UHGV virus genome: UHGV-1964375
Origin: a virus
Strand: one strand, 5' to 3'
DNA length: 12,612 nucleotides
Numbering within the stretch: the first letter of the stretch is position 1; every line of letters begins with the position of its first letter. The translations under genes were made by a program, and so were the position numbers. This document shows, piece by piece, positions 1 to 12,449 of the stretch. The notes beneath the pieces were generated by a model. That model had not been told where the DNA came from. It searched no databases and saw only the letters and a list, made by a program, of their open reading frames with translations.

Positions 1-59
1 ATTAATTCTTTCATCTGACGAATGAATTCTTCGTCTGACCAGTTATCTGTAAAACTCAT
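1..59 (-). CDS. hypothetical protein, N-terminal fragment only (continues past window start); begins MSFTDNWSDEEFIRQMKEL
   Basis: ATG at 59..57 on the minus strand overlaps the TGA of the upstream Kil-like ORF (ATGA). Open to the window edge. Does not resemble lambda Gam, which occupies this position in lambda. Confidence 0.3.
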   Translation of the reverse strand, partial: MSFTDNWSDEEFIRQMKEL

Positions 60-208
60 TTCCTGCGATACCACGGAAGGTTGATAGCTGATTTCATCGC
101 TTTATTTGCTTCAAGCCACATTTTTGAATCACCAATAAATCTGGCTATTACTGCTTTGTTTTGTGCCGCACGAAGCATCTGGTGATTGATGGCTATTTCA
201 TTGCGCAT
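56..208 (-). CDS. Kil-like small protein (50 aa), called mainly by position
   Basis: My own translation: MRNEIAINHQMLRAAQNKAVIARFIGDSKMWLEANKAMKSAINLPWYRRK. GGAGG lies 4 nt upstream of the ATG. The start overlaps the cIII-like 3' end by 16 nt, as kil does in lambda. Below the 60-aa cutoff of the ORF track. Confidence 0.4.
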   Translation of the reverse strand: MRNEIAINHQMLRAAQNKAVIARFIGDSKMWLEANKAMKSAINLPWYRRK

Positions 209-327
209 AACGCCTCCAGTTGTTTCTTTGCTGCTCTGATTAATTGTTTAACTCGGCGTGATAATTCAGATTCGTGCGGGTAGAAAGCGGACATGACGCC
301 GCTACCCGCGAGCTGAAAGTGCATCAT
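193..327 (-). CDS. cIII: CIII-like regulator (44 aa; FtsH inhibitor that stabilises CII in lambda)
   Basis: Internal start of the 193..378 ORF: AAGGAG, 6 nt, then ATGATG. MMHFQLAGSGVMSAFYPHESELSRRVKQLIRAAKKQLEALCAMK shares the AG...ES.L.R..K.L pattern of lambda CIII. Sits in the pL operon where cIII is expected. Confidence 0.5.
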   Translation of the reverse strand: MMHFQLAGSGVMSAFYPHESELSRRVKQLIRAAKKQLEALCAMK

Positions 328-410
328 GGGTAACTCCTTATATTTGATTGCATAACGAAAATGCCTCTCGTGAAGCATTATTGGTATGCGGTAAAGCCGC
401 GCTCAGGCGG

Positions 411-659
411 CTACTCTATTTCTTCTTCGAATGATTTTATTAGTCGGTCAATAACATCATCCGTTTCAATATCATTTCCGTCTGATTGCTTTAATACATC
501 TATTGATTCTGCAGCGGTAAATTCCATCGCTGTGAGAAACTCGACAATTGCACACTCAACGACATATCGTTCTTCATCTGTACGACATGAGATAAAAGAG
601 CATTTAATTGCTGTTATTACTTTTTGTTTAAGCTCTGCAGGGTAATCAGTTTTTATCAT
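411..659 (-). CDS. hypothetical small acidic protein (82 aa)
   Basis: Intact ORF with GGAG 6 nt before the ATG. About 20 Asp/Glu against 9 Lys/Arg. Lies between ral and cIII in the pL operon. No family recognised. Confidence 0.55.
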   Translation of the reverse strand: MIKTDYPAELKQKVITAIKCSFISCRTDEERYVVECAIVEFLTAMEFTAAESIDVLKQSDGNDIETDDVIDRLIKSFEEEIE

Positions 660-672
660 CGTTTACTCCGTC

Positions 673-700
673 AAAAAAAACTGCCCTCACATTGGAGGGC
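673..700 (-). terminator. intrinsic terminator within the pL operon (tL1-like), just upstream of the 82-aa gene
   Basis: Minus-strand RNA reads GCCCTC-CAAUGU-GAGGGC followed by U8. The plus strand has the A8 run at 673..680 and the stem at 683..700. Confidence 0.55.
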
Positions 701-820
701 AAAGAAGATTTCCAATAATCAGAACAAGTCGGCTCCTGTTTAGTTACGAGCGACATTGCTCCGTGTATTCACTCGTTGGAATGAATACACAGTGCAGTGT
801 TTATTCTGTTGTTTATGCCA

Positions 821-846
821 AAAATGAAGGCCGACTATGCGGCCTG
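821..846 (-). terminator. possible weak intrinsic terminator after the 121-aa membrane-protein gene
   Basis: Minus-strand hairpin AGGCCG-CAUAGU-CGGCCU directly after the TAA stop, followed by UCAUUUUUGG. Confidence 0.3.
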
Positions 847-849
847 AAA

Positions 850-1215
850 TTACTTAACCAATGATGCTGCATATTCGATAAGGTAAAGTTTTGGAGCAAG
901 CCAGATTTTCAGCCAGTCGAAATAATTGAAGAAAACAACAATAGAAGTAATCGCTATTCCTGATGTTACAAGTAGCGATAAAAGAACAACATCCGCATCA
1001 TCTCCTTTATTCCATGCAAAAATCATCAGATAAACACACGCTATAATCACCAATACACAGATAGCCTGAATTCCAGCTGATGATACGGCGTGCCACATCA
1101 AAAGCTGATGGATGACATCAGGAATCTGTGCCTGGCTAAATGAAACAGCCGCGTCTATTCCATTACTGGCTTTTTGCAGTAGTTCTACGAGAATCTTGTT
1201 TGCTTGTTCTTCCAT
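850..1215 (-). CDS. hypothetical small membrane protein (121 aa, 2-3 predicted TM helices)
   Basis: Intact ORF with AAGGGG 4 nt before the ATG. Hydrophobic stretches AICVLVIIACVYLMIFAW and VVLLSLLVTSGIAITSIVVFF. Located immediately downstream of ral. Confidence 0.6.
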   Translation of the reverse strand: MEEQANKILVELLQKASNGIDAAVSFSQAQIPDVIHQLLMWHAVSSAGIQAICVLVIIACVYLMIFAWNKGDDADVVLLSLLVTSGIAITSIVVFFNYFDWLKIWLAPKLYLIEYAASLVK

Positions 1216-1274
1216 ATATCCCCTTGATTGTAATAAGCATGAAATTATTTACGGCCAAAAAATAAAGGCCACCA

Positions 1275-1475
1275 TCAGGCAGCCTTGTTATTCTGTTTAC
1301 CAAGTTCTCTGGCAATCATTGCCGTTGTTCGTATTGCCCATTTATCGACATATTTCCCATTCTCCATTACAGGAAACATTTCTTCAGGCTTAACCATGCA
1401 TTCCGATTGCAGCTTGCATCCATTGCATCGCTTGAATTGCCCACACCATTGATTTTTATCAATAGTCGTAGTCAT
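1275..1475 (-). CDS. ral: restriction alleviation protein Ral (66 aa)
   Basis: MTTTIDKNQWCGQFKRCNGCKLQSECMVKPEEMFPVMENGKYVDKWAIRTTAMIARELGKQNNKAA matches my recollection of lambda Ral / Rac Lar almost residue for residue. Lies downstream of N in the pL operon. Confidence 0.65.
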   Translation of the reverse strand: MTTTIDKNQWCGQFKRCNGCKLQSECMVKPEEMFPVMENGKYVDKWAIRTTAMIARELGKQNNKAA

Positions 1476-1545
1476 ACGGATAGTCCTGGTATTGTTCCAT
1501 CACATCCTGAGGATGCTCTTCGAACTCTTCAAATTCTTCTTCCAT
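1459..1545 (-). CDS. possible 28-aa acidic, Tyr-rich micro-ORF between N and ral
   Basis: My own translation: MEEEFEEFEEHPQDVMEQYQDYPYDYDY. GAGGTGA SD 3-4 nt before the ATG. Starts 9 nt after the N stop and its TGA overlaps the ral start region. Confidence 0.25.
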   Translation of the reverse strand: MEEEFEEFEEHPQDVMEQYQDYPYDYDY

Positions 1546-1553
1546 ATCTCACC

Positions 1554-1880
1554 TCAAATAAGTGGTTTGCTGCCTAATTTCATTTTCTGGCGACCAACAC
1601 AAGTCACACCCATTTCACTGCGTGGCTTGCTGTACCATGTGCGCTTATTCTTTCGCTCAATACGTTGCAGGTTGCTTTCAATCTGTTCGTGGTATTCAGC
1701 CAGCACCGTAAGGTCTATCGGATTCAGTGCGCTTTCTACTCGTGATTTCGGTTTGCGATTCAGCGAGAGAATAGGGCGGTTAACTGGTTTTGCGCTTACC
1801 CCAACCAACAGGGGATTTGCTGCTTTCCATTCGGCCTGTTTAGCTGCGCGACGTTCGCGACGGCGTGTTTGAGAGTCCAT
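1554..1880 (-). CDS. N: antitermination protein N (107 aa)
   Basis: MDSQTRRRERRAAKQAEWKAANPLLVGVSAKPVNRPILSLNRKPKSRVESALNPIDL... is near-identical to lambda N, including the Arg-rich boxB-binding motif QTRRRERRA. Lies downstream of pL and nutL. Confidence 0.92.
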   Translation of the reverse strand: MDSQTRRRERRAAKQAEWKAANPLLVGVSAKPVNRPILSLNRKPKSRVESALNPIDLTVLAEYHEQIESNLQRIERKNKRTWYSKPRSEMGVTCVGRQKMKLGSKPLI

Positions 1881-1921
1881 ATATCATCCTCAGATAAATG
1901 GCCCCTCAGCGGGGCCGACAG

Positions 1922-2050
1922 TTATTGGCAGGTTGCGTACTTGCTGATGCAGGAGAAGATTTCCACGATTCGCGTCATTGTTGTTTCAGGACGCTTTGCT
2001 TCATCACGCATTGACTTCAACCAAGCCATAAAGTGTTCGTTATGTTTCAT
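1922..2050 (-). CDS. possible 42-aa ORF between the N-leader Shine-Dalgarno and the N gene
   Basis: My own translation: MKHNEHFMAWLKSMRDEAKRPETTMTRIVEIFSCISKYATCQ. Preceded by CACCACCAAAGCTAACTGACAGGAG, which I recall as the leader/SD that sits directly before N in lambda; here AGGAG is 6 nt before this ATG. Confidence 0.3.
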   Translation of the reverse strand: MKHNEHFMAWLKSMRDEAKRPETTMTRIVEIFSCISKYATCQ

Positions 2051-2221
2051 GTTCATCTCCTGTCAGTTAGCTTTGGTGGTGTGGTAGGTGGGAGACCCAT
2101 TTCGACCTGTTTCGGCCGACTTCAATTCGGCAATAGTTCCGCAGGCCTCGCCGCTTTACGTGCGACATATTCCCATCCATGAACCCTTCACCACACCCCA
2201 AAGCCTTCTGCTTTGAATGCT

Positions 2222-2252
2222 GCCCTTCTTCAGGGCTTAATTTTTAAGAGCG
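2222..2252 (-). promoter_or_regulatory. nutL: nutL (boxA CGCTCTTA, spacer, boxB GCCCTGAAGAAGGGC)
   Basis: The minus strand reads CGCTCTTAAAAATTAAGCCCTGAAGAAGGGC, matching the lambda nutL sequence as I recall it. boxB is at 2222..2236 and boxA at 2245..2252. Confidence 0.8.
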
Positions 2253-2291
2253 TCACCTTCATGGTGGTTAGTGCGTCCTGCTGATGGCTTA

Positions 2292-2320
2292 AAATTACAA
2301 GAAAGATTGTATGTTGTAAA
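2292..2320 (-). promoter_or_regulatory. pL early-left promoter (-35 TTTACA, 17-bp spacer, -10 TAATTT)
   Basis: The hexamers are read from the minus strand. OL1 lies in the spacer and OL2 abuts the -35, the usual lambdoid arrangement. Confidence 0.45.
2297..2310. promoter_or_regulatory. operator OL1 (434-type 14-bp site ACAAGAAAGATTGT)
   Basis: 14-bp ACAA-N6-TTGT palindrome of the 434 operator family. Confidence 0.75.
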
Positions 2321-2333
2321 CAAGAAATATTGT
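2320..2333. promoter_or_regulatory. operator OL2 (ACAAGAAATATTGT)
   Basis: 14-bp ACAA-N6-TTGT site, 9 bp from OL1. Confidence 0.75.
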
Positions 2334-2350
2334 AAATGGAGGTGCAAAAA

Positions 2351-2364
2351 ACAAACTCCATTGT
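2351..2364. promoter_or_regulatory. operator OL3 (ACAAACTCCATTGT)
   Basis: 14-bp ACAA-N6-TTGT site. The reverse complement is ACAATGGAGTTTGT. Confidence 0.7.
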
Positions 2365-2414
2365 TTTTAAACGGAAAATAGTTTGTTTTTGGGTTACTGA
2401 GATTGAGGTGGGGA

Positions 2415-3767
<1,353 letters not shown>

Positions 3768-3886: not shown

Positions 3887-4165
3887 ATGCAACTTACAAG
3901 TACTCGCAAGAAAGCGAATGCAATTACAAGCAACATCCTGAATCGAATTGCTGTACGTGGTCAGCGAAAGGTGGCCGACGCGTTAGGGATTAATGAATCG
4001 CAAATTTCACGATGGAAAGACAGCTTCATCCCAAAAATGGGAATGCTTCTGGCTGTTCTTGAATGGGGTGTTGAAGACGAGGAGTTGGCGGAACTGGCTA
4101 AGAAAGTAGCCAGAATGCTGACAAAAGAAAAAGCCCCGAAGAACGGCGAATTCTTCGAGGCCTGA
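3887..4165 (+). CDS. cII: transcriptional activator CII (92 aa)
   Basis: Internal Met of ORF 3827..4165, with AAGGAAAT upstream. [41 protein letters not shown] parallels lambda CII ([25 protein letters not shown]). Confidence 0.85.
3920..3933 (-). promoter_or_regulatory. pRE -35 region / CII binding site (TTGC-N6-TTGC)
   Basis: The minus strand reads TTGCTTGTAATTGC inside the 5' part of cII, antisense to it, which is where pRE sits in lambda. Confidence 0.55.
4122..4161 (-). terminator. intrinsic terminator antisense to the cII 3' end (oop-RNA-like terminator)
   Basis: Minus-strand 11-bp stem (one mismatch) with a 7-nt loop, followed by UUUUUCUUUUG. A possible -10 (CATAAT, minus strand, plus coordinates 4197..4202) would give a transcript of about 70 nt. 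Confidence 0.5.
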
Positions 4166-4346: not shown

Positions 4347-5199
4347 TCTTGCAACCGTAACACATTTAAGGCCTTCACAACGGCCTGTGGAGCGTCGTGT
4401 GGCAGAAGTTGAAGATGGTTATACCCGTCTTGCAAATGCCCTGTATGAAGAGCTTATCGGCGCAGATTTAACGAAAAATCAGAGCAAGGTTGCCCACGCC
4501 ATATGCCGTAAAACATACGGCTACGGTAAAAAGATGGATCGCATCTCTGATAGTCAGTTAGCTCAAATTACCAGGCTGCCAAGACAGAAGGTAAACAAGG
4601 CCAAGAATGAGCTTATCGCGATGAAGGTTATCCTTCGCGAAGGCCAGCAAATCGGGCCTAACAAGAACATCGAGGAATGGCAAATCGAAGGGTGTCACTA
4701 CTCTGGTGATAATGTCACTGCATTGGTGACAAAAAGTGTCACCAAAACGGTGACAGCGCTGTCACCAAAACAGGGACACACAAAAGAAACTATTACAAAA
4801 GAAAAAAGAAATAATAAAAACACTATGTCCGAAAGTGTTCGGACGGAGTGTGAAAAATCACCTGACCGTCACGAAGAAACCGACAAGGCATTCGAGGAAA
4901 TATTCTGGTGTGCAGGCATGCGGAAAGCCGGGAAGAAAAACGCAGCTTCGGCATTCAGAACACAGTTCAGGGAATGGCGTAAAACTACCAAGGGTACCGC
5001 AAGCGAGTTTGCCACGATGCTGGCAGAAGACATCGCATGCAGGAATGGTAAGCAGTTCGGATTCGACAGGTTGTTACCATCGAGCTACCTGAACGGTCAA
5101 CGCTGGAACGACGAGAAGCCAGAAACTATTCAACCACAATCCAAACCATCATCCGCAATCACCGTATCGAAAACTGGCTACGTGTTTTTCGACAGGTGA
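4339..5199 (+). CDS. O: replication initiator, lambda O-like N-terminal domain (286 aa)
   Basis: [56 protein letters not shown] parallels the lambda O N-terminus. Iteron-like palindromes and an AT-rich tract lie inside the gene, as for ori-lambda. The C-terminal half is unlike lambda O. Confidence 0.85.
4684..4812. repeat. putative replication origin: iteron-like palindromes plus AT-rich tract inside the O gene
   Basis: Repeated TGTCAC...GGTGA units at 4684..4700 and 4704..4721, then palindromes GGTGACA-aaaag-TGTCACC (4716..4734) and GGTGACA-gcgc-TGTCACC (4740..4757), followed by an A-rich 40-bp tract at 4771..4812. Confidence 0.6.
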
Positions 5200-5306: not shown

Positions 5307-5801
5307 ATGATGAGCCTTGAAGTTGGAGAATATATACCTGGTTATGAGGGTAAATACTCTGTAACCAAAGACGGTCGTGTTTATTCACATTTAAGAGGCA
5401 GGTTTTTGAATCCATCTCCGGATAACAAGGGTTATCTAAGAGTCACTTTGTGTTCCGATGGGATTCAGAAGACGTTAAAAGTTCATCGTCTTGTAGCTCA
5501 ATTATTTATCCCAAATCCGTATTGCAAGCCAGAAGTAAATCATATCAACGGCGACAAATCGGATAACGCCATTTGGAACTTGGAATGGTGTACCTGCTCA
5601 GAGAATTTAAAACATGCTTTTAGCATCGGACTGAAAAGCGCAAAGGGAGTTTTTAATGGTAGGGCAAAACTATCTGAAACTGATGTGATTGATATCAGGA
5701 ATTCTGTTGGTATGAAACTAAGCGAACTATCCACTAAATACGGAGTGAGTGAAATGCAAATTTCCACAATCCGCAGAGGAAACGCATGGAGGCACCTTTG
5801 A
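5307..5801 (+). CDS. HNH homing endonuclease (164 aa), apparently intact
   Basis: N-terminal YEGKYSVTKDGRVYS motif (NUMOD4-like) and HRLVAQLFIPNP...VNHINGDKSDNAIWNLEWCTCSENLKHA (HNH). GAGGGA SD upstream. Lies between O and the helicase gene. Confidence 0.85.
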   Translation: MMSLEVGEYIPGYEGKYSVTKDGRVYSHLRGRFLNPSPDNKGYLRVTLCSDGIQKTLKVHRLVAQLFIPNPYCKPEVNHINGDKSDNAIWNLEWCTCSENLKHAFSIGLKSAKGVFNGRAKLSETDVIDIRNSVGMKLSELSTKYGVSEMQISTIRRGNAWRHL

Positions 5802-12125: not shown

Positions 12126-12449
12126 ATGAAGATGCCAGAAAAACATGACCTGTTAGCCGCCATTCTCGCGGCAAAGGAACAAGGCATCGGGGCAATCCTT
12201 GCGTTTGCAATGGCGTACCTTCGCGGCAGATATAATGGCGGTGCGTTTACAAAAACAGTAATCGACGCAACGATGTGCGCCATTATCGCCTGGTTCATTC
12301 GTGACCTTCTCGACTTCGCCGGACTAAGTAGCAATCTTGCTTATATAACGAGCGTGTTCATCGGCTACATCGGCACTGACTCGATTGGTTCGCTTATCAA
12401 ACGCTTCGCTGCTAAAAAAGCCGGAGTAGAAGATGGTGGAAATCAATAA
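12126..12449 (+). CDS. S: holin S (class I, S107/S105 dual start)
   Basis: [64 protein letters not shown]... is near-identical to lambda S, with the Met1-Lys2-Met3 dual-start motif. Confidence 0.95.

What the first reader, a model, noticed from the sequence alone, without database searches (positions are those of the whole stretch)
850..1215. Unrecognised 121-aa membrane protein downstream of ral (possible exclusion or abortive-infection function)
The protein has two or three strongly hydrophobic helices and a good RBS. It sits in the pL operon where lambda and P22 carry sieB-type functions, but it is much shorter than SieB (about 190 aa) and I do not recognise it. Two minus-strand terminator-like hairpins lie just downstream at 821..846 and 673..700, so its expression may be separated from the genes further left.
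Basis: inference. Interest (0 to 1): 0.5.

Follow-up and report, generated by a model that had tools for sequence, protein, structure and literature searches.

The report
Uncharacterised early phage inner-membrane hairpin protein
The ORF is a real, conserved 121-residue two-helix membrane protein from a very large phage family that nobody has characterised; it is unrelated to SieB and its exclusion role is still only a guess.

Summary
ORF 850..1215(-) encodes a 121-aa protein with a good RBS and two transmembrane helices, and it lies between terminator-like hairpins. It is under purifying selection (dN/dS 0.06-0.29).

It belongs to PHROG 3054 (function unknown, no Pfam, NCBIfam or PADLOC model). 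A profile search found 4,384 clusters at 50% identity. An acidic ~45-aa N-terminal helix and a Trp-rich ~22-aa C-terminal helix are near-invariant. The membrane hairpin and its loop (9-75 aa) are hypervariable.

The gene is a mobile single-gene cassette. Relative to lambda it is a 406-bp insertion after the ral hairpin. Relatives sit in pL operons, after spanin genes, antisense between terminase and portal, and in early regions of virulent N4-like and phi92-like phages.

It has no promoter of its own and lies downstream of pL-nutL-N. It is therefore probably an early lytic gene that is silent in the lysogen.

It is not SieB-like: no homology, opposite orientation logic, and it coexists with sieB in phage SPN9CC. 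A 120/121-identical protein was one of 200 accessory genes screened by Silas et al. and gave no reported phenotype.

My best guess, at low confidence, is an envelope-level exclusion function acting from the periplasmic face.

The parts
850..1215 (-). Coding sequence of the 121-aa PHROG 3054 family protein (stop codon 850-852)
   Evidence: ORF list and sequence. PHROG 3054 E=6e-47 over the full length. dN/dS 0.06-0.29. 120/121 identical to AEW47744.1 of phage SPN9CC.
1220..1225 (-). Shine-Dalgarno sequence AAGGGG, 4 nt upstream of the ATG
   Evidence: Read directly from the sequence.
1078..1215 (-). Codons 1-46: conserved acidic N-terminal helix. Near-invariant residues: L9, G19, F26, P32, D33, V34, Q37, L38, L39, W41, S46.
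   Evidence: Alignments A1 and A2 and per-column conservation over 149 sequences, that is 148 cluster representatives plus the query. AF2 helix 2-70, pLDDT 89-98.
1012..1077 (-). Codons ~47-68: transmembrane helix 1. Hydrophobic, but the sequence is hypervariable across the family.
   Evidence: Hydropathy; conservation profile.
991..1011 (-). Codons ~69-75: minimal acidic loop (W)NKGDDAD. The loop is 9-75 aa in relatives and rich in K/R there.
925..990 (-). Codons ~76-97: transmembrane helix 2
   Evidence: Hydropathy; AF2 helix 74-97.
853..924 (-). Codons 98-121: conserved Trp-rich amphipathic C-terminal segment WLKIWLAPKLYLIEYAASLVK. K109 is invariant in A2; I104, A107, P108, L112, E114, Y115 and L119 are at least 90% conserved.
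   Evidence: AF2 helices 100-106 and 108-120.
1257..1286 (-). Terminator-like hairpin plus T-run overlapping the ral stop. It is also present in lambda and forms the upstream boundary of the cassette.
   Evidence: Scan; dG -13.9 kcal/mol, z -3.3; alignment to lambda.
818..845 (-). Terminator-like hairpin plus T-run directly after the ORF. Its 3' half and T-run duplicate the hairpin after ral.
   Evidence: Scan; dG -9.7, z -2.3; direct repeats 817-843 / 1254-1280 and 842-856 / 1237-1251.
839..1244 (-). The 406-bp cassette (leader, ORF and 5' half of the hairpin) that is absent from lambda imm434 at this joint
   Evidence: blastn break points: window 675-838 and 1245-1570 are contiguous or overlapping in lambda (locus 2501-2663 and 2635-2957); three-way alignment.
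673..702 (-). Strong hairpin plus T8. It aligns to the site the Sf6 record annotates as the lambda tL2A homologue. It belongs to the lambda-like backbone, not to the cassette.
   Evidence: Scan; dG -12.7, z -3.6; Sf6 annotation and alignment.

Best explanation
Shown:
- The ORF encodes a small inner-membrane helical-hairpin protein of a very large phage-specific family (PHROG 3054).
- The functional module is the pair of near-invariant segments that flank the hairpin: an acidic ~45-aa N-terminal helix and a Trp-rich ~22-aa C-terminal helix. Hairpin geometry puts both on the same face of the membrane.
- The two transmembrane helices and the loop are only a variable anchor.
- The gene is a self-contained mobile cassette with no conserved partner gene.

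Inferred from sequence:
- In this phage the gene has no promoter and lies on the pL-nutL-N-ral transcript. It should therefore be made early in lytic growth or after induction, by N-antiterminated read-through of the hairpins, and not in the lysogen.
- The charge and cysteine statistics of the family favour an N-out/C-out topology. That places the conserved module on the periplasmic face and the K/R-rich loop in the cytoplasm. I put this at about 70%.

Proposed mechanism (inference, about 30%):
It works like the early superinfection-exclusion proteins of virulent phages (T4 Imm/Sp type). The periplasm-facing helices, probably as an oligomer, act on a conserved envelope component at the inner-membrane surface. 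This makes an already infected cell refractory to genome entry or envelope damage by later-arriving phages.
For: Architecture and conservation. AF2 with 146 sequences gives pLDDT 94.3 with three or four helices.

Family size: 4,384 clusters at E<=1e-3, all 110-185 aa among those listed.

No conserved neighbour in 46 diverse loci.

Mobility:
- The same subfamily (94% aa identity) occurs in the pL operon here and antisense between terminase and portal in L027.
- Cassettes are bracketed by duplicated hairpin halves.

Early-gene setting:
- nutL boxB lies at 2222-2236 and N at 1554-1880, upstream on the same strand. No promoter-like site lies upstream of the ORF.
- In many prophages the gene starts 12 nt after the N stop.
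- It lies in early regions of N4-like, phi92-like and other virulent phages.

Antisense stand-alone copies inside late operons are the classical position of exclusion and conversion genes.

Topology:
- The N-tail averages 1.9 K/R and 5.6 D/E per 41 aa.
- Loops are 17% K/R, with a K/R cluster right after TM1.
- Unpaired cysteines in loops: 33 sequences have one Cys and 6 have two.

Host range: found only in phages and prophages of Gram-negative hosts, mainly Gamma- and Betaproteobacteria.
Against: - There is no sequence or fold similarity to any known exclusion protein: SieB, Imm, or a 54-aa fragment of SieA.
- The near-identical orf47/UDP0047 was in the 200-gene pooled screen of Silas et al. 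It is not among the genes reported as protective, sensitising or conditionally lethal against T2-T7, P1 and lambda. That screen was not tuned for exclusion and tested no P22-like phage, with lambda as the only lambdoid phage.
- The conserved parts are the same from Vibrio to Pusillimonas phages. This points to a conserved host target and fits host take-over equally well.
- In at least 7 prophages the gene is coupled to the end of the lysis cassette. That is late expression, when exclusion is of little use.
- The query's own 9-aa loop is acidic with one Lys, so its topology is ambiguous taken alone.
- Topology was inferred from simple statistics, not from a dedicated predictor or an experiment.
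Confidence: 0.3

Rival explanations
1. Host take-over or counter-defence factor. The conserved helices bind and neutralise a conserved host inner-membrane or periplasmic machine. Candidates are a membrane-embedded defence or abortive-infection sensor or effector, or an envelope-stress or division component. This would benefit the phage's own early development.
For: The gene sits in the accessory region that holds ral, a PHROG 14587 'anti-restriction' ORF, cIII and kil. Abc1 and abc2 lie in the same region in SPN9CC. It is expressed early here and in virulent phages. The termini are near-invariant across phages of very different hosts, as expected for a conserved host target. Silas et al. chose accessory genes from such regions, 54 of them from regions with known counter-defence factors, but I did not read their rationale for this gene.
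Against: No host-sensitising or conditional-lethal phenotype was reported in the ECOR strains screened with 8 phages. PADLOC and Pfam give no link to any defence partner. Late expression in the lysis-cassette copies and the antisense copies in late operons fit poorly.
Confidence: 0.27
2. Lysis-timing modulator. A membrane protein that tunes holin triggering, spanin action or membrane integrity, for example by delaying premature lysis or lysis from without.
For: It is a small two-TM protein. In at least 7 diverse prophages (Buttiauxella, Dryocola, Proteus, Providencia, Xenorhabdus, two Yersinia) the gene follows the Rz-like spanin, on the same strand. In five of them it is within 7 nt or overlaps by ATGA; in the two Yersinia loci the gap is about 110 nt. 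A periplasm-facing helical module would meet the periplasmic domains of spanins and holins.
Against: Most copies are nowhere near lysis genes. In this window the holin is 11 kb away, at 12126-12449. Holins and spanins of the carrier phages are unrelated to each other, whereas the family's termini are invariant. There is no similarity to any holin or antiholin model. The region after the spanin gene is itself a known hot spot for unrelated accessory genes, on the basis of established knowledge of lambda bor.
Confidence: 0.12
3. SieB-like abortive-infection or exclusion protein expressed from the prophage.
For: It is a membrane protein in the immunity-left region. This phage lacks sieB.
Against: No homology: Pfam gives nothing at E<=1 and hhalign gives 0.2%. 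It lies on the pL-sense strand with no promoter, unlike lambda sieB, which is on the opposite strand. It coexists with sieB in SPN9CC. It is present in strictly virulent phages. No toxicity was reported on induction in the screen.
Confidence: 0.05

Closest known systems
PHROG 3054 (includes Shigella phage Sf6 gene 34 protein, Salmonella phage SPN9CC_0015 = 'orf47/UDP0047' of Silas et al., phi92 gp220, Pseudomonas phage Bjorn gp18)
   Same: Full-length homology (E=6e-47). Same architecture and the same invariant residues. Sf6 gene 34 has the same position after ral.
   Different: This copy has the shortest loop class (9 aa, against about 28 aa in Sf6 gp34). It is about 52% identical to Sf6 gp34. 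No member has a known function.
T4 Imm (Pfam PF14373, superinfection immunity protein)
   Same: A small early phage inner-membrane protein with a two-TM hairpin that acts alone. This is the mechanistic analogy I propose.
   Different: No sequence relationship (no Pfam hit; hhalign probability 0.35%). Imm lacks the conserved 45-aa N-terminal helix. In the Silas screen notes Imm is flagged as an exclusion hit and orf47 is not.
Lambda/P22 SieB
   Same: A membrane protein encoded left of the immunity region of lambdoid phages.
   Different: About 160-190 aa, unrelated in sequence, encoded on the opposite strand in lambda and, from established knowledge, expressed from the prophage. It coexists with this family in SPN9CC. 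Not a member.
HK97 gp15 / P22 SieA type prophage exclusion morons
   Same: Single-gene inner-membrane accessory cassettes found at hot spots in late operons. Some family members occupy such positions on the antisense strand.
   Different: No homology was detected to the 54-aa SieA fragment I tested; I did not test HK97 gp15 or full-length SieA. The copy in this window has no promoter and lies in an early lytic operon.
Class II (two-TM) holins and antiholins
   Same: Size and two-TM hairpin. Some relatives are adjacent to lysis cassettes.
   Different: No match to any holin model in Pfam or PHROGs. Conservation lies outside the membrane rather than in the TM helices. The phage has its own holin at 12126-12449.

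Membership tests
PHROG 3054 (unnamed phage membrane-protein family) | Full-length match to the family profile | tested here: met
   E=6.2e-47, residues 1-121 against profile 1-137. All 146 aligned sequences (145 representatives plus the query) also match it.
PHROG 3054 (unnamed phage membrane-protein family) | Architecture: conserved N-terminal helix, two TM helices with a variable loop, and the conserved C-terminal WLKIWxAPKxYLxEYAAxLxK motif | tested here: met
   All near-invariant residues are present in the query. Two TM segments.
SieB (lambda/P22 superinfection exclusion B) | Sequence homology to SieB | tested here: not met
   No Pfam family at E<=1 apart from a chance Vma12 hit. hhalign of A1 against lambda SieB gives probability 0.2% over 8 columns.
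SieB (lambda/P22 superinfection exclusion B) | Own transcription unit expressed in the lysogen, antisense to pL in lambda | tested here: not met
   The ORF is on the pL-sense strand. No sigma-70-like site lies between 1215 and 1300. Lambda sieB is on the + strand. Expression itself is not testable here.
SieB (lambda/P22 superinfection exclusion B) | Abortive-infection phenotype against heteroimmune phages | not testable with these tools
   There is only indirect evidence: no phenotype was reported for the 120/121-identical orf47 in a pooled screen with T2-T7, P1 and lambda.
T4 Imm (PF14373) | Match to the Imm profile or sequence | tested here: not met
   No Pfam hit. hhalign of A2 against T4 Imm gives probability 0.35%.
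Holin / antiholin families | Match to a holin model and position in the lysis cassette | tested here: not met
   No holin family in Pfam or PHROGs. hhalign against a PHROG 198 holin gives 0.08%. The window's holin is at 12126-12449. Some relatives do follow spanin genes.
Moron (autonomous promoter-gene-terminator cassette) | Own promoter upstream and own terminator downstream | tested here: inconclusive
   A terminator-like hairpin is present. No promoter-like site was found here or in L033, L100 or L088. Instead a hairpin plus T-run lies immediately upstream. The consensus scan cannot exclude weak or non-sigma-70 promoters.
Known anti-phage defence proteins (PADLOC-DB) | Match to a defence-system protein model | tested here: not met
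   The best hits are generic '2TM effector' models at E=0.065-0.078, which are not significant.

The most novel reading that the evidence does not exclude
PHROG 3054 is a previously unrecognised, very widespread class of periplasm-facing phage inner-membrane proteins, with at least 4,000 clusters at 50% identity in temperate and virulent phages of Proteobacteria. Under this reading its near-invariant N- and C-terminal helices target one conserved envelope component. That would give a generic, host-independent way to close an infected cell to further phage entry or to envelope-level defence. It would move between genomes as a terminator-bracketed cassette.
Probability: 0.2. Interest if true: 0.7.

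Novelty: new member of a known kind. Interest (0 to 1): 0.35.

Why it matters
Small phage membrane proteins are among the least understood accessory genes. This one has exceptionally clear features: a huge family, about twenty near-invariant residues outside the membrane, no partner gene, and presence in model phages (Sf6, HK633, SPN9CC, phi92) where knock-outs are easy.

If the conserved module acts on a shared envelope component, it would reveal a general step of phage entry or envelope defence that both virulent and temperate phages manipulate. It would also give a name to thousands of 'hypothetical proteins'.

If it has no phenotype, it remains an ordinary hypothetical accessory gene. The immediate practical result is negative: it should not be annotated as SieB-like.

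Tried and rejected
Family and model searches:
- Pfam, NCBIfam and PADLOC scans of the query gave nothing significant.
- A Pfam scan of the 146 sequences in alignment A2 (145 diverse members plus the query) gave only scattered chance hits to membrane DUFs, in at most 2 members each.

Structure searches:
- A PDB sequence profile search gave 0 hits at E<=10.
- Foldseek against BFVD with the high-confidence model found only family members.
- The afdb50 library was not available.

Direct comparisons: hhalign against lambda SieB, T4 Imm and a PHROG 198 holin gave probabilities below 1%. The comparison with P22 SieA used only a 54-aa fragment and is uninformative.

Conserved partner gene: blastp clustering of 4 neighbours on each side in 46 loci found none. 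The recurrent neighbours are context markers (spanin, endolysin, terminase, portal) and not partners.

Own promoter: none was found by consensus scan here or in three antisense-cassette loci.

GC content: the gene (39%) is no different from the surrounding AT-rich accessory region, so GC gives no evidence of separate origin.

Literature: there is nothing on phrog_3054 or Sf6 gene 34 function. The SNIPE paper is unrelated. I first suspected that 'orf184', the ral-linked trigger of gop-beta-cII, was this protein. It is not; this protein is orf47/UDP0047.

I fetched the P22 record with wrong coordinates and did not pursue it.

Full report
1. THE OBSERVATION

The minus-strand ORF 850..1215 is present as described: 121 aa with an ATG start. 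An AAGGGG Shine-Dalgarno sequence lies 4 nt upstream, at 1225-1220.

A Kyte-Doolittle scan gives two strong hydrophobic segments, at aa ~47-68 and ~76-97. The C-terminal 22 residues are amphipathic and Trp-rich, not a third membrane span.

Both downstream hairpins exist. Hairpin 845-828 has dG -9.7 kcal/mol and z -2.3. Hairpin 702-681 has a T8 tail, dG -12.7 and z -3.6. Terminator-like sites are enriched in 1..3600, with 10 found against 3.1 +/- 1.7 in shuffles.

The ORF is a real gene. It has hundreds of homologues. dN/dS against close relatives is 0.06-0.29.

2. GENOMIC SETTING

The window is the early region of a lambdoid or P22-like phage with 434 immunity.
- Leftward from the repressor (2816-3448) lie a homologue of the 434 'Hex' ORF, pL/nutL, N, a 28-aa acidic ORF, ral, the ORF in question, an 82-aa ORF (PHROG 14587, 'anti-restriction'), cIII and kil.
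- The nutL boxB sequence GCCCTGAAGAAGGGC is at 2222-2236 on the minus strand. This is read directly from the sequence using the established lambda consensus.
- Rightward lie cro, cII, O, an HNH endonuclease, primase/helicase, nin genes, Q and a holin.
- The nearest phages are Sf6, HK633 and HK446, at 96-98% identity over mosaic segments.

Comparison with lambda imm434 shows two things.
- The sieB segment of lambda is absent here.
- The ORF is part of a 406-bp insertion (839-1244) placed right after the hairpin and T-run that follow ral in lambda. The 3' half of that hairpin and its T-run are duplicated at the other end of the insertion.

Hairpin 702-681 belongs to the lambda-like backbone. It aligns to the site annotated as the tL2A homologue in Sf6.

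No sigma-70-like site precedes the ORF. In many related prophages the gene starts 12 nt after the N stop codon. I therefore infer that the gene is transcribed from pL, with N-dependent read-through, early in lytic growth and not in the lysogen.

3. THE PROTEIN FAMILY

PHROG 3054 ('unknown function') matches over the full length at E=6e-47. Nothing significant was found in any of the following:
- Pfam, NCBIfam or PADLOC;
- the PDB by sequence;
- the PDB by fold.

BFVD returns only family members. Every source name is 'hypothetical protein' or 'Gene 34 protein'.

A profile search of 1.84 billion cluster representatives found 4,384 clusters at E<=1e-3 and 1,859 at E<=1e-10. The 150 that were listed are all 70-185 aa.

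Alignments show a striking pattern.
- The first ~46 residues are near-invariant at L9, G19, F26, P32-D-V, Q37-L-L-x-W41 and S46.
- The last ~22 residues are near-invariant in the motif W-L-K-I-W-x-A-P-K-x-Y-L-x-E-Y-A-A-x-L-x-K.
- The two membrane helices vary freely.
- The loop ranges from 9 to 75 residues, with subfamily-specific motifs. The query has the shortest loop class.

AlphaFold2 with 146 sequences gives pLDDT 94.3 and pTM 0.69. It predicts one long helix (2-70) running from the N-terminus through TM1, then TM2 (74-97), then two short C-terminal helices.

Hairpin geometry puts the two conserved segments on the same side of the membrane. I take them to be the functional module, probably in an oligomer.

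4. TOPOLOGY (INFERENCE)

Statistics across the aligned family (149 sequences; 144 passing the hydrophobicity filter):
- The N-tail is acidic and poor in K/R (mean 1.9 K/R and 5.6 D/E).
- Loops are 17% K/R, with a K/R cluster directly after TM1.
- The K/R excess of the loop over the flanking tails grows with loop length.
- Loops more often carry a single cysteine (33 sequences) than a pair (6 sequences).
- The termini carry almost no cysteine.

By the positive-inside rule this favours a cytoplasmic loop and periplasmic termini (N-out/C-out). I put this at about 70%. The query's own acidic 9-aa loop is uninformative.

5. DISTRIBUTION AND MOBILITY

The family occurs in temperate lambdoid and P22-like phages and in strictly virulent ones. 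The virulent carriers include:
- phi92-like myoviruses;
- N4-like Ithacavirus and Vibrio Pariacacavirus;
- other Vibrio phages;
- Rheinheimera phage Barba19A;
- Pseudomonas phage Bjorn.

It also occurs in prophages of Enterobacterales, Pseudomonas, Thalassotalea and several Betaproteobacteria.

Its position is not fixed.
- In pL operons it follows N or ral.
- In at least 7 prophages it follows the holin-endolysin-spanin cassette on the same strand. In five it is tightly coupled; in the two Yersinia loci the gap is about 110 nt.
- In 7 loci it lies antisense between terminase and portal.
- In Vibrio phage K366 it lies antisense inside tail genes.
- In virulent phages it lies in early or middle regions.

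A 94%-identical copy (L027) sits in the terminase-portal context.

No neighbouring gene is conserved.

Antisense cassettes share a GC hairpin plus T7 immediately upstream of the RBS. A similar hairpin lies downstream. This matches the duplicated hairpin in this window and suggests that cassettes move by recombination at terminator hairpins.

6. PRIOR EXPERIMENTAL CONTACT

The protein of Salmonella phage SPN9CC (AEW47744.1) differs at one residue. It is 'UDP0047' among the 200 accessory genes synthesised by Silas et al. (bioRxiv 10.1101/2023.04.06.535777, Supplementary File 3; TMHMM 2, no comment).

It is not among the genes reported as conditionally lethal, host-sensitising or protective. The screen notes name only UDP79, UDP183, cor and Imm as exclusion hits. 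The follow-up paper, PMC12373910, does not mention it.

The screen used T2-T7, P1 and lambda and was not tuned for exclusion. This is therefore weak negative evidence.

In SPN9CC the gene lies next to an intact sieB.

7. INTERPRETATION

The SieB analogy fails on four counts: homology, strand and promoter logic, co-occurrence with sieB, and presence in virulent phages.

What remains is an early-expressed, stand-alone inner-membrane protein with an invariant module that probably faces the periplasm.

My ranking of the possible functions:
- About 30%: an Imm/Sp-like role at the envelope that protects an already infected cell from later-arriving phages. This fits the early position in virulent and temperate phages, the moron-like antisense copies, and the restriction to Gram-negative hosts.
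- About 27%: a host take-over or counter-defence role on a conserved membrane target. This fits the neighbourhood of ral, cIII and kil and the cross-host conservation.
- About 12%: a lysis-timing role, suggested by the spanin-adjacent copies.
- About 5%: prophage-expressed SieB-like abortive infection.
- The remainder is 'something else or nothing measurable'.

8. NOVELTY AND VERDICT

The gene is already catalogued as a hypothetical protein and PHROG member, and it has even been synthesised once. The sequence is therefore not new. No member has a function, and the family has no Pfam model.

It is a new member of a known kind, namely small phage accessory membrane proteins. Interest is moderate to low as it stands (0.35). 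It would be higher if the conserved module proves to act on a shared envelope component.

Noticed in passing
window 1459-1545 (-): A 28-aa, extremely acidic ORF (MEEEFEEFEEHPQDVMEQYQDYPYDYDY) lies between N and ral. Its end overlaps the ral start by 17 nt. The same 87-nt ORF is annotated as a hypothetical protein in lambda imm434 (record 34271-34357), and the segment is 95% identical. It could be a DNA mimic or decoy-like peptide, or a translational coupler for ral.
   Followed up: partly
window 2415-2891 (-): The ORF directly downstream of the 434-type repressor matches PHROG 2651 and the lambda imm434 gene annotated as 'Hex, repressor protection protein' (PMID 23303392 in the record's note). 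From the internal Met it begins [20 protein letters not shown], which looks like a signal or lipoprotein-type leader. That is odd for a protein said to protect a cytoplasmic repressor.
   Followed up: no
window 411-659 (-): An 82-aa acidic ORF (PHROG 14587, labelled 'anti-restriction protein') replaces lambda ea10 between the tL2a-like hairpin and cIII. It is 100% identical in HK446, and about 40% identical copies occur in many Salmonella phages.
   Followed up: partly
window 5307-5801 (+): An HNH endonuclease ORF (PHROG 59, E=1e-56) sits between the O-like initiator and a 630-aa primase/helicase. It is possibly a homing-endonuclease insertion in the replication module.
   Followed up: no
window 801-856 and 1237-1297; L033 3449-3461 / 4054-4066; L032 3971-3980 / 4378-4387; L100 3972-3983 / 4609-4620: Family cassettes are bracketed by direct repeats that consist of the 3' half of a GC hairpin plus its T-run. 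Antisense cassettes share a conserved hairpin followed by CATTTTTTTAA immediately before the RBS. This suggests cassette movement by recombination at intrinsic-terminator hairpins. It leaves open how the antisense copies are transcribed.
   Followed up: partly
L106, L108, L116, L125, L126 (match start ~4001 or 937); L111, L115: In Buttiauxella, Dryocola, Proteus, Providencia, Xenorhabdus and Yersinia prophages the family gene follows the Rz-like spanin gene on the same strand. In the first five genera the gap is 7 nt or less, or the genes overlap by ATGA. In the two Yersinia loci the gap is about 110 nt. In the tightly coupled cases it should be co-expressed late with the lysis genes.
   Followed up: partly
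L033 ~3460-3670, L109, L035 (just upstream of the family gene): In three antisense cassettes a small ORF of about 65-70 aa lies between the upstream hairpin and the family gene, separated from it by only a short RBS-containing spacer. In L033 it begins MSILNTEKDIRTQEEREASF and ends AAFDKIKL. It is absent from this window and from most loci.
   Followed up: no
L001 (HK633, NC_019719.1) 4440-4805: The HK633 record annotates only a 58-aa C-terminal fragment (F848_gp42), although the full 121-aa ORF is intact and 99% identical. This is probably a start-codon mis-annotation.
   Followed up: partly
L060 3717-3793 (+): A tRNA-Arg(tct) gene lies about 200 nt upstream of, and on the same strand as, an antisense family cassette between terminase and portal. 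Together they form a small accessory islet inside the late operon.
   Followed up: no
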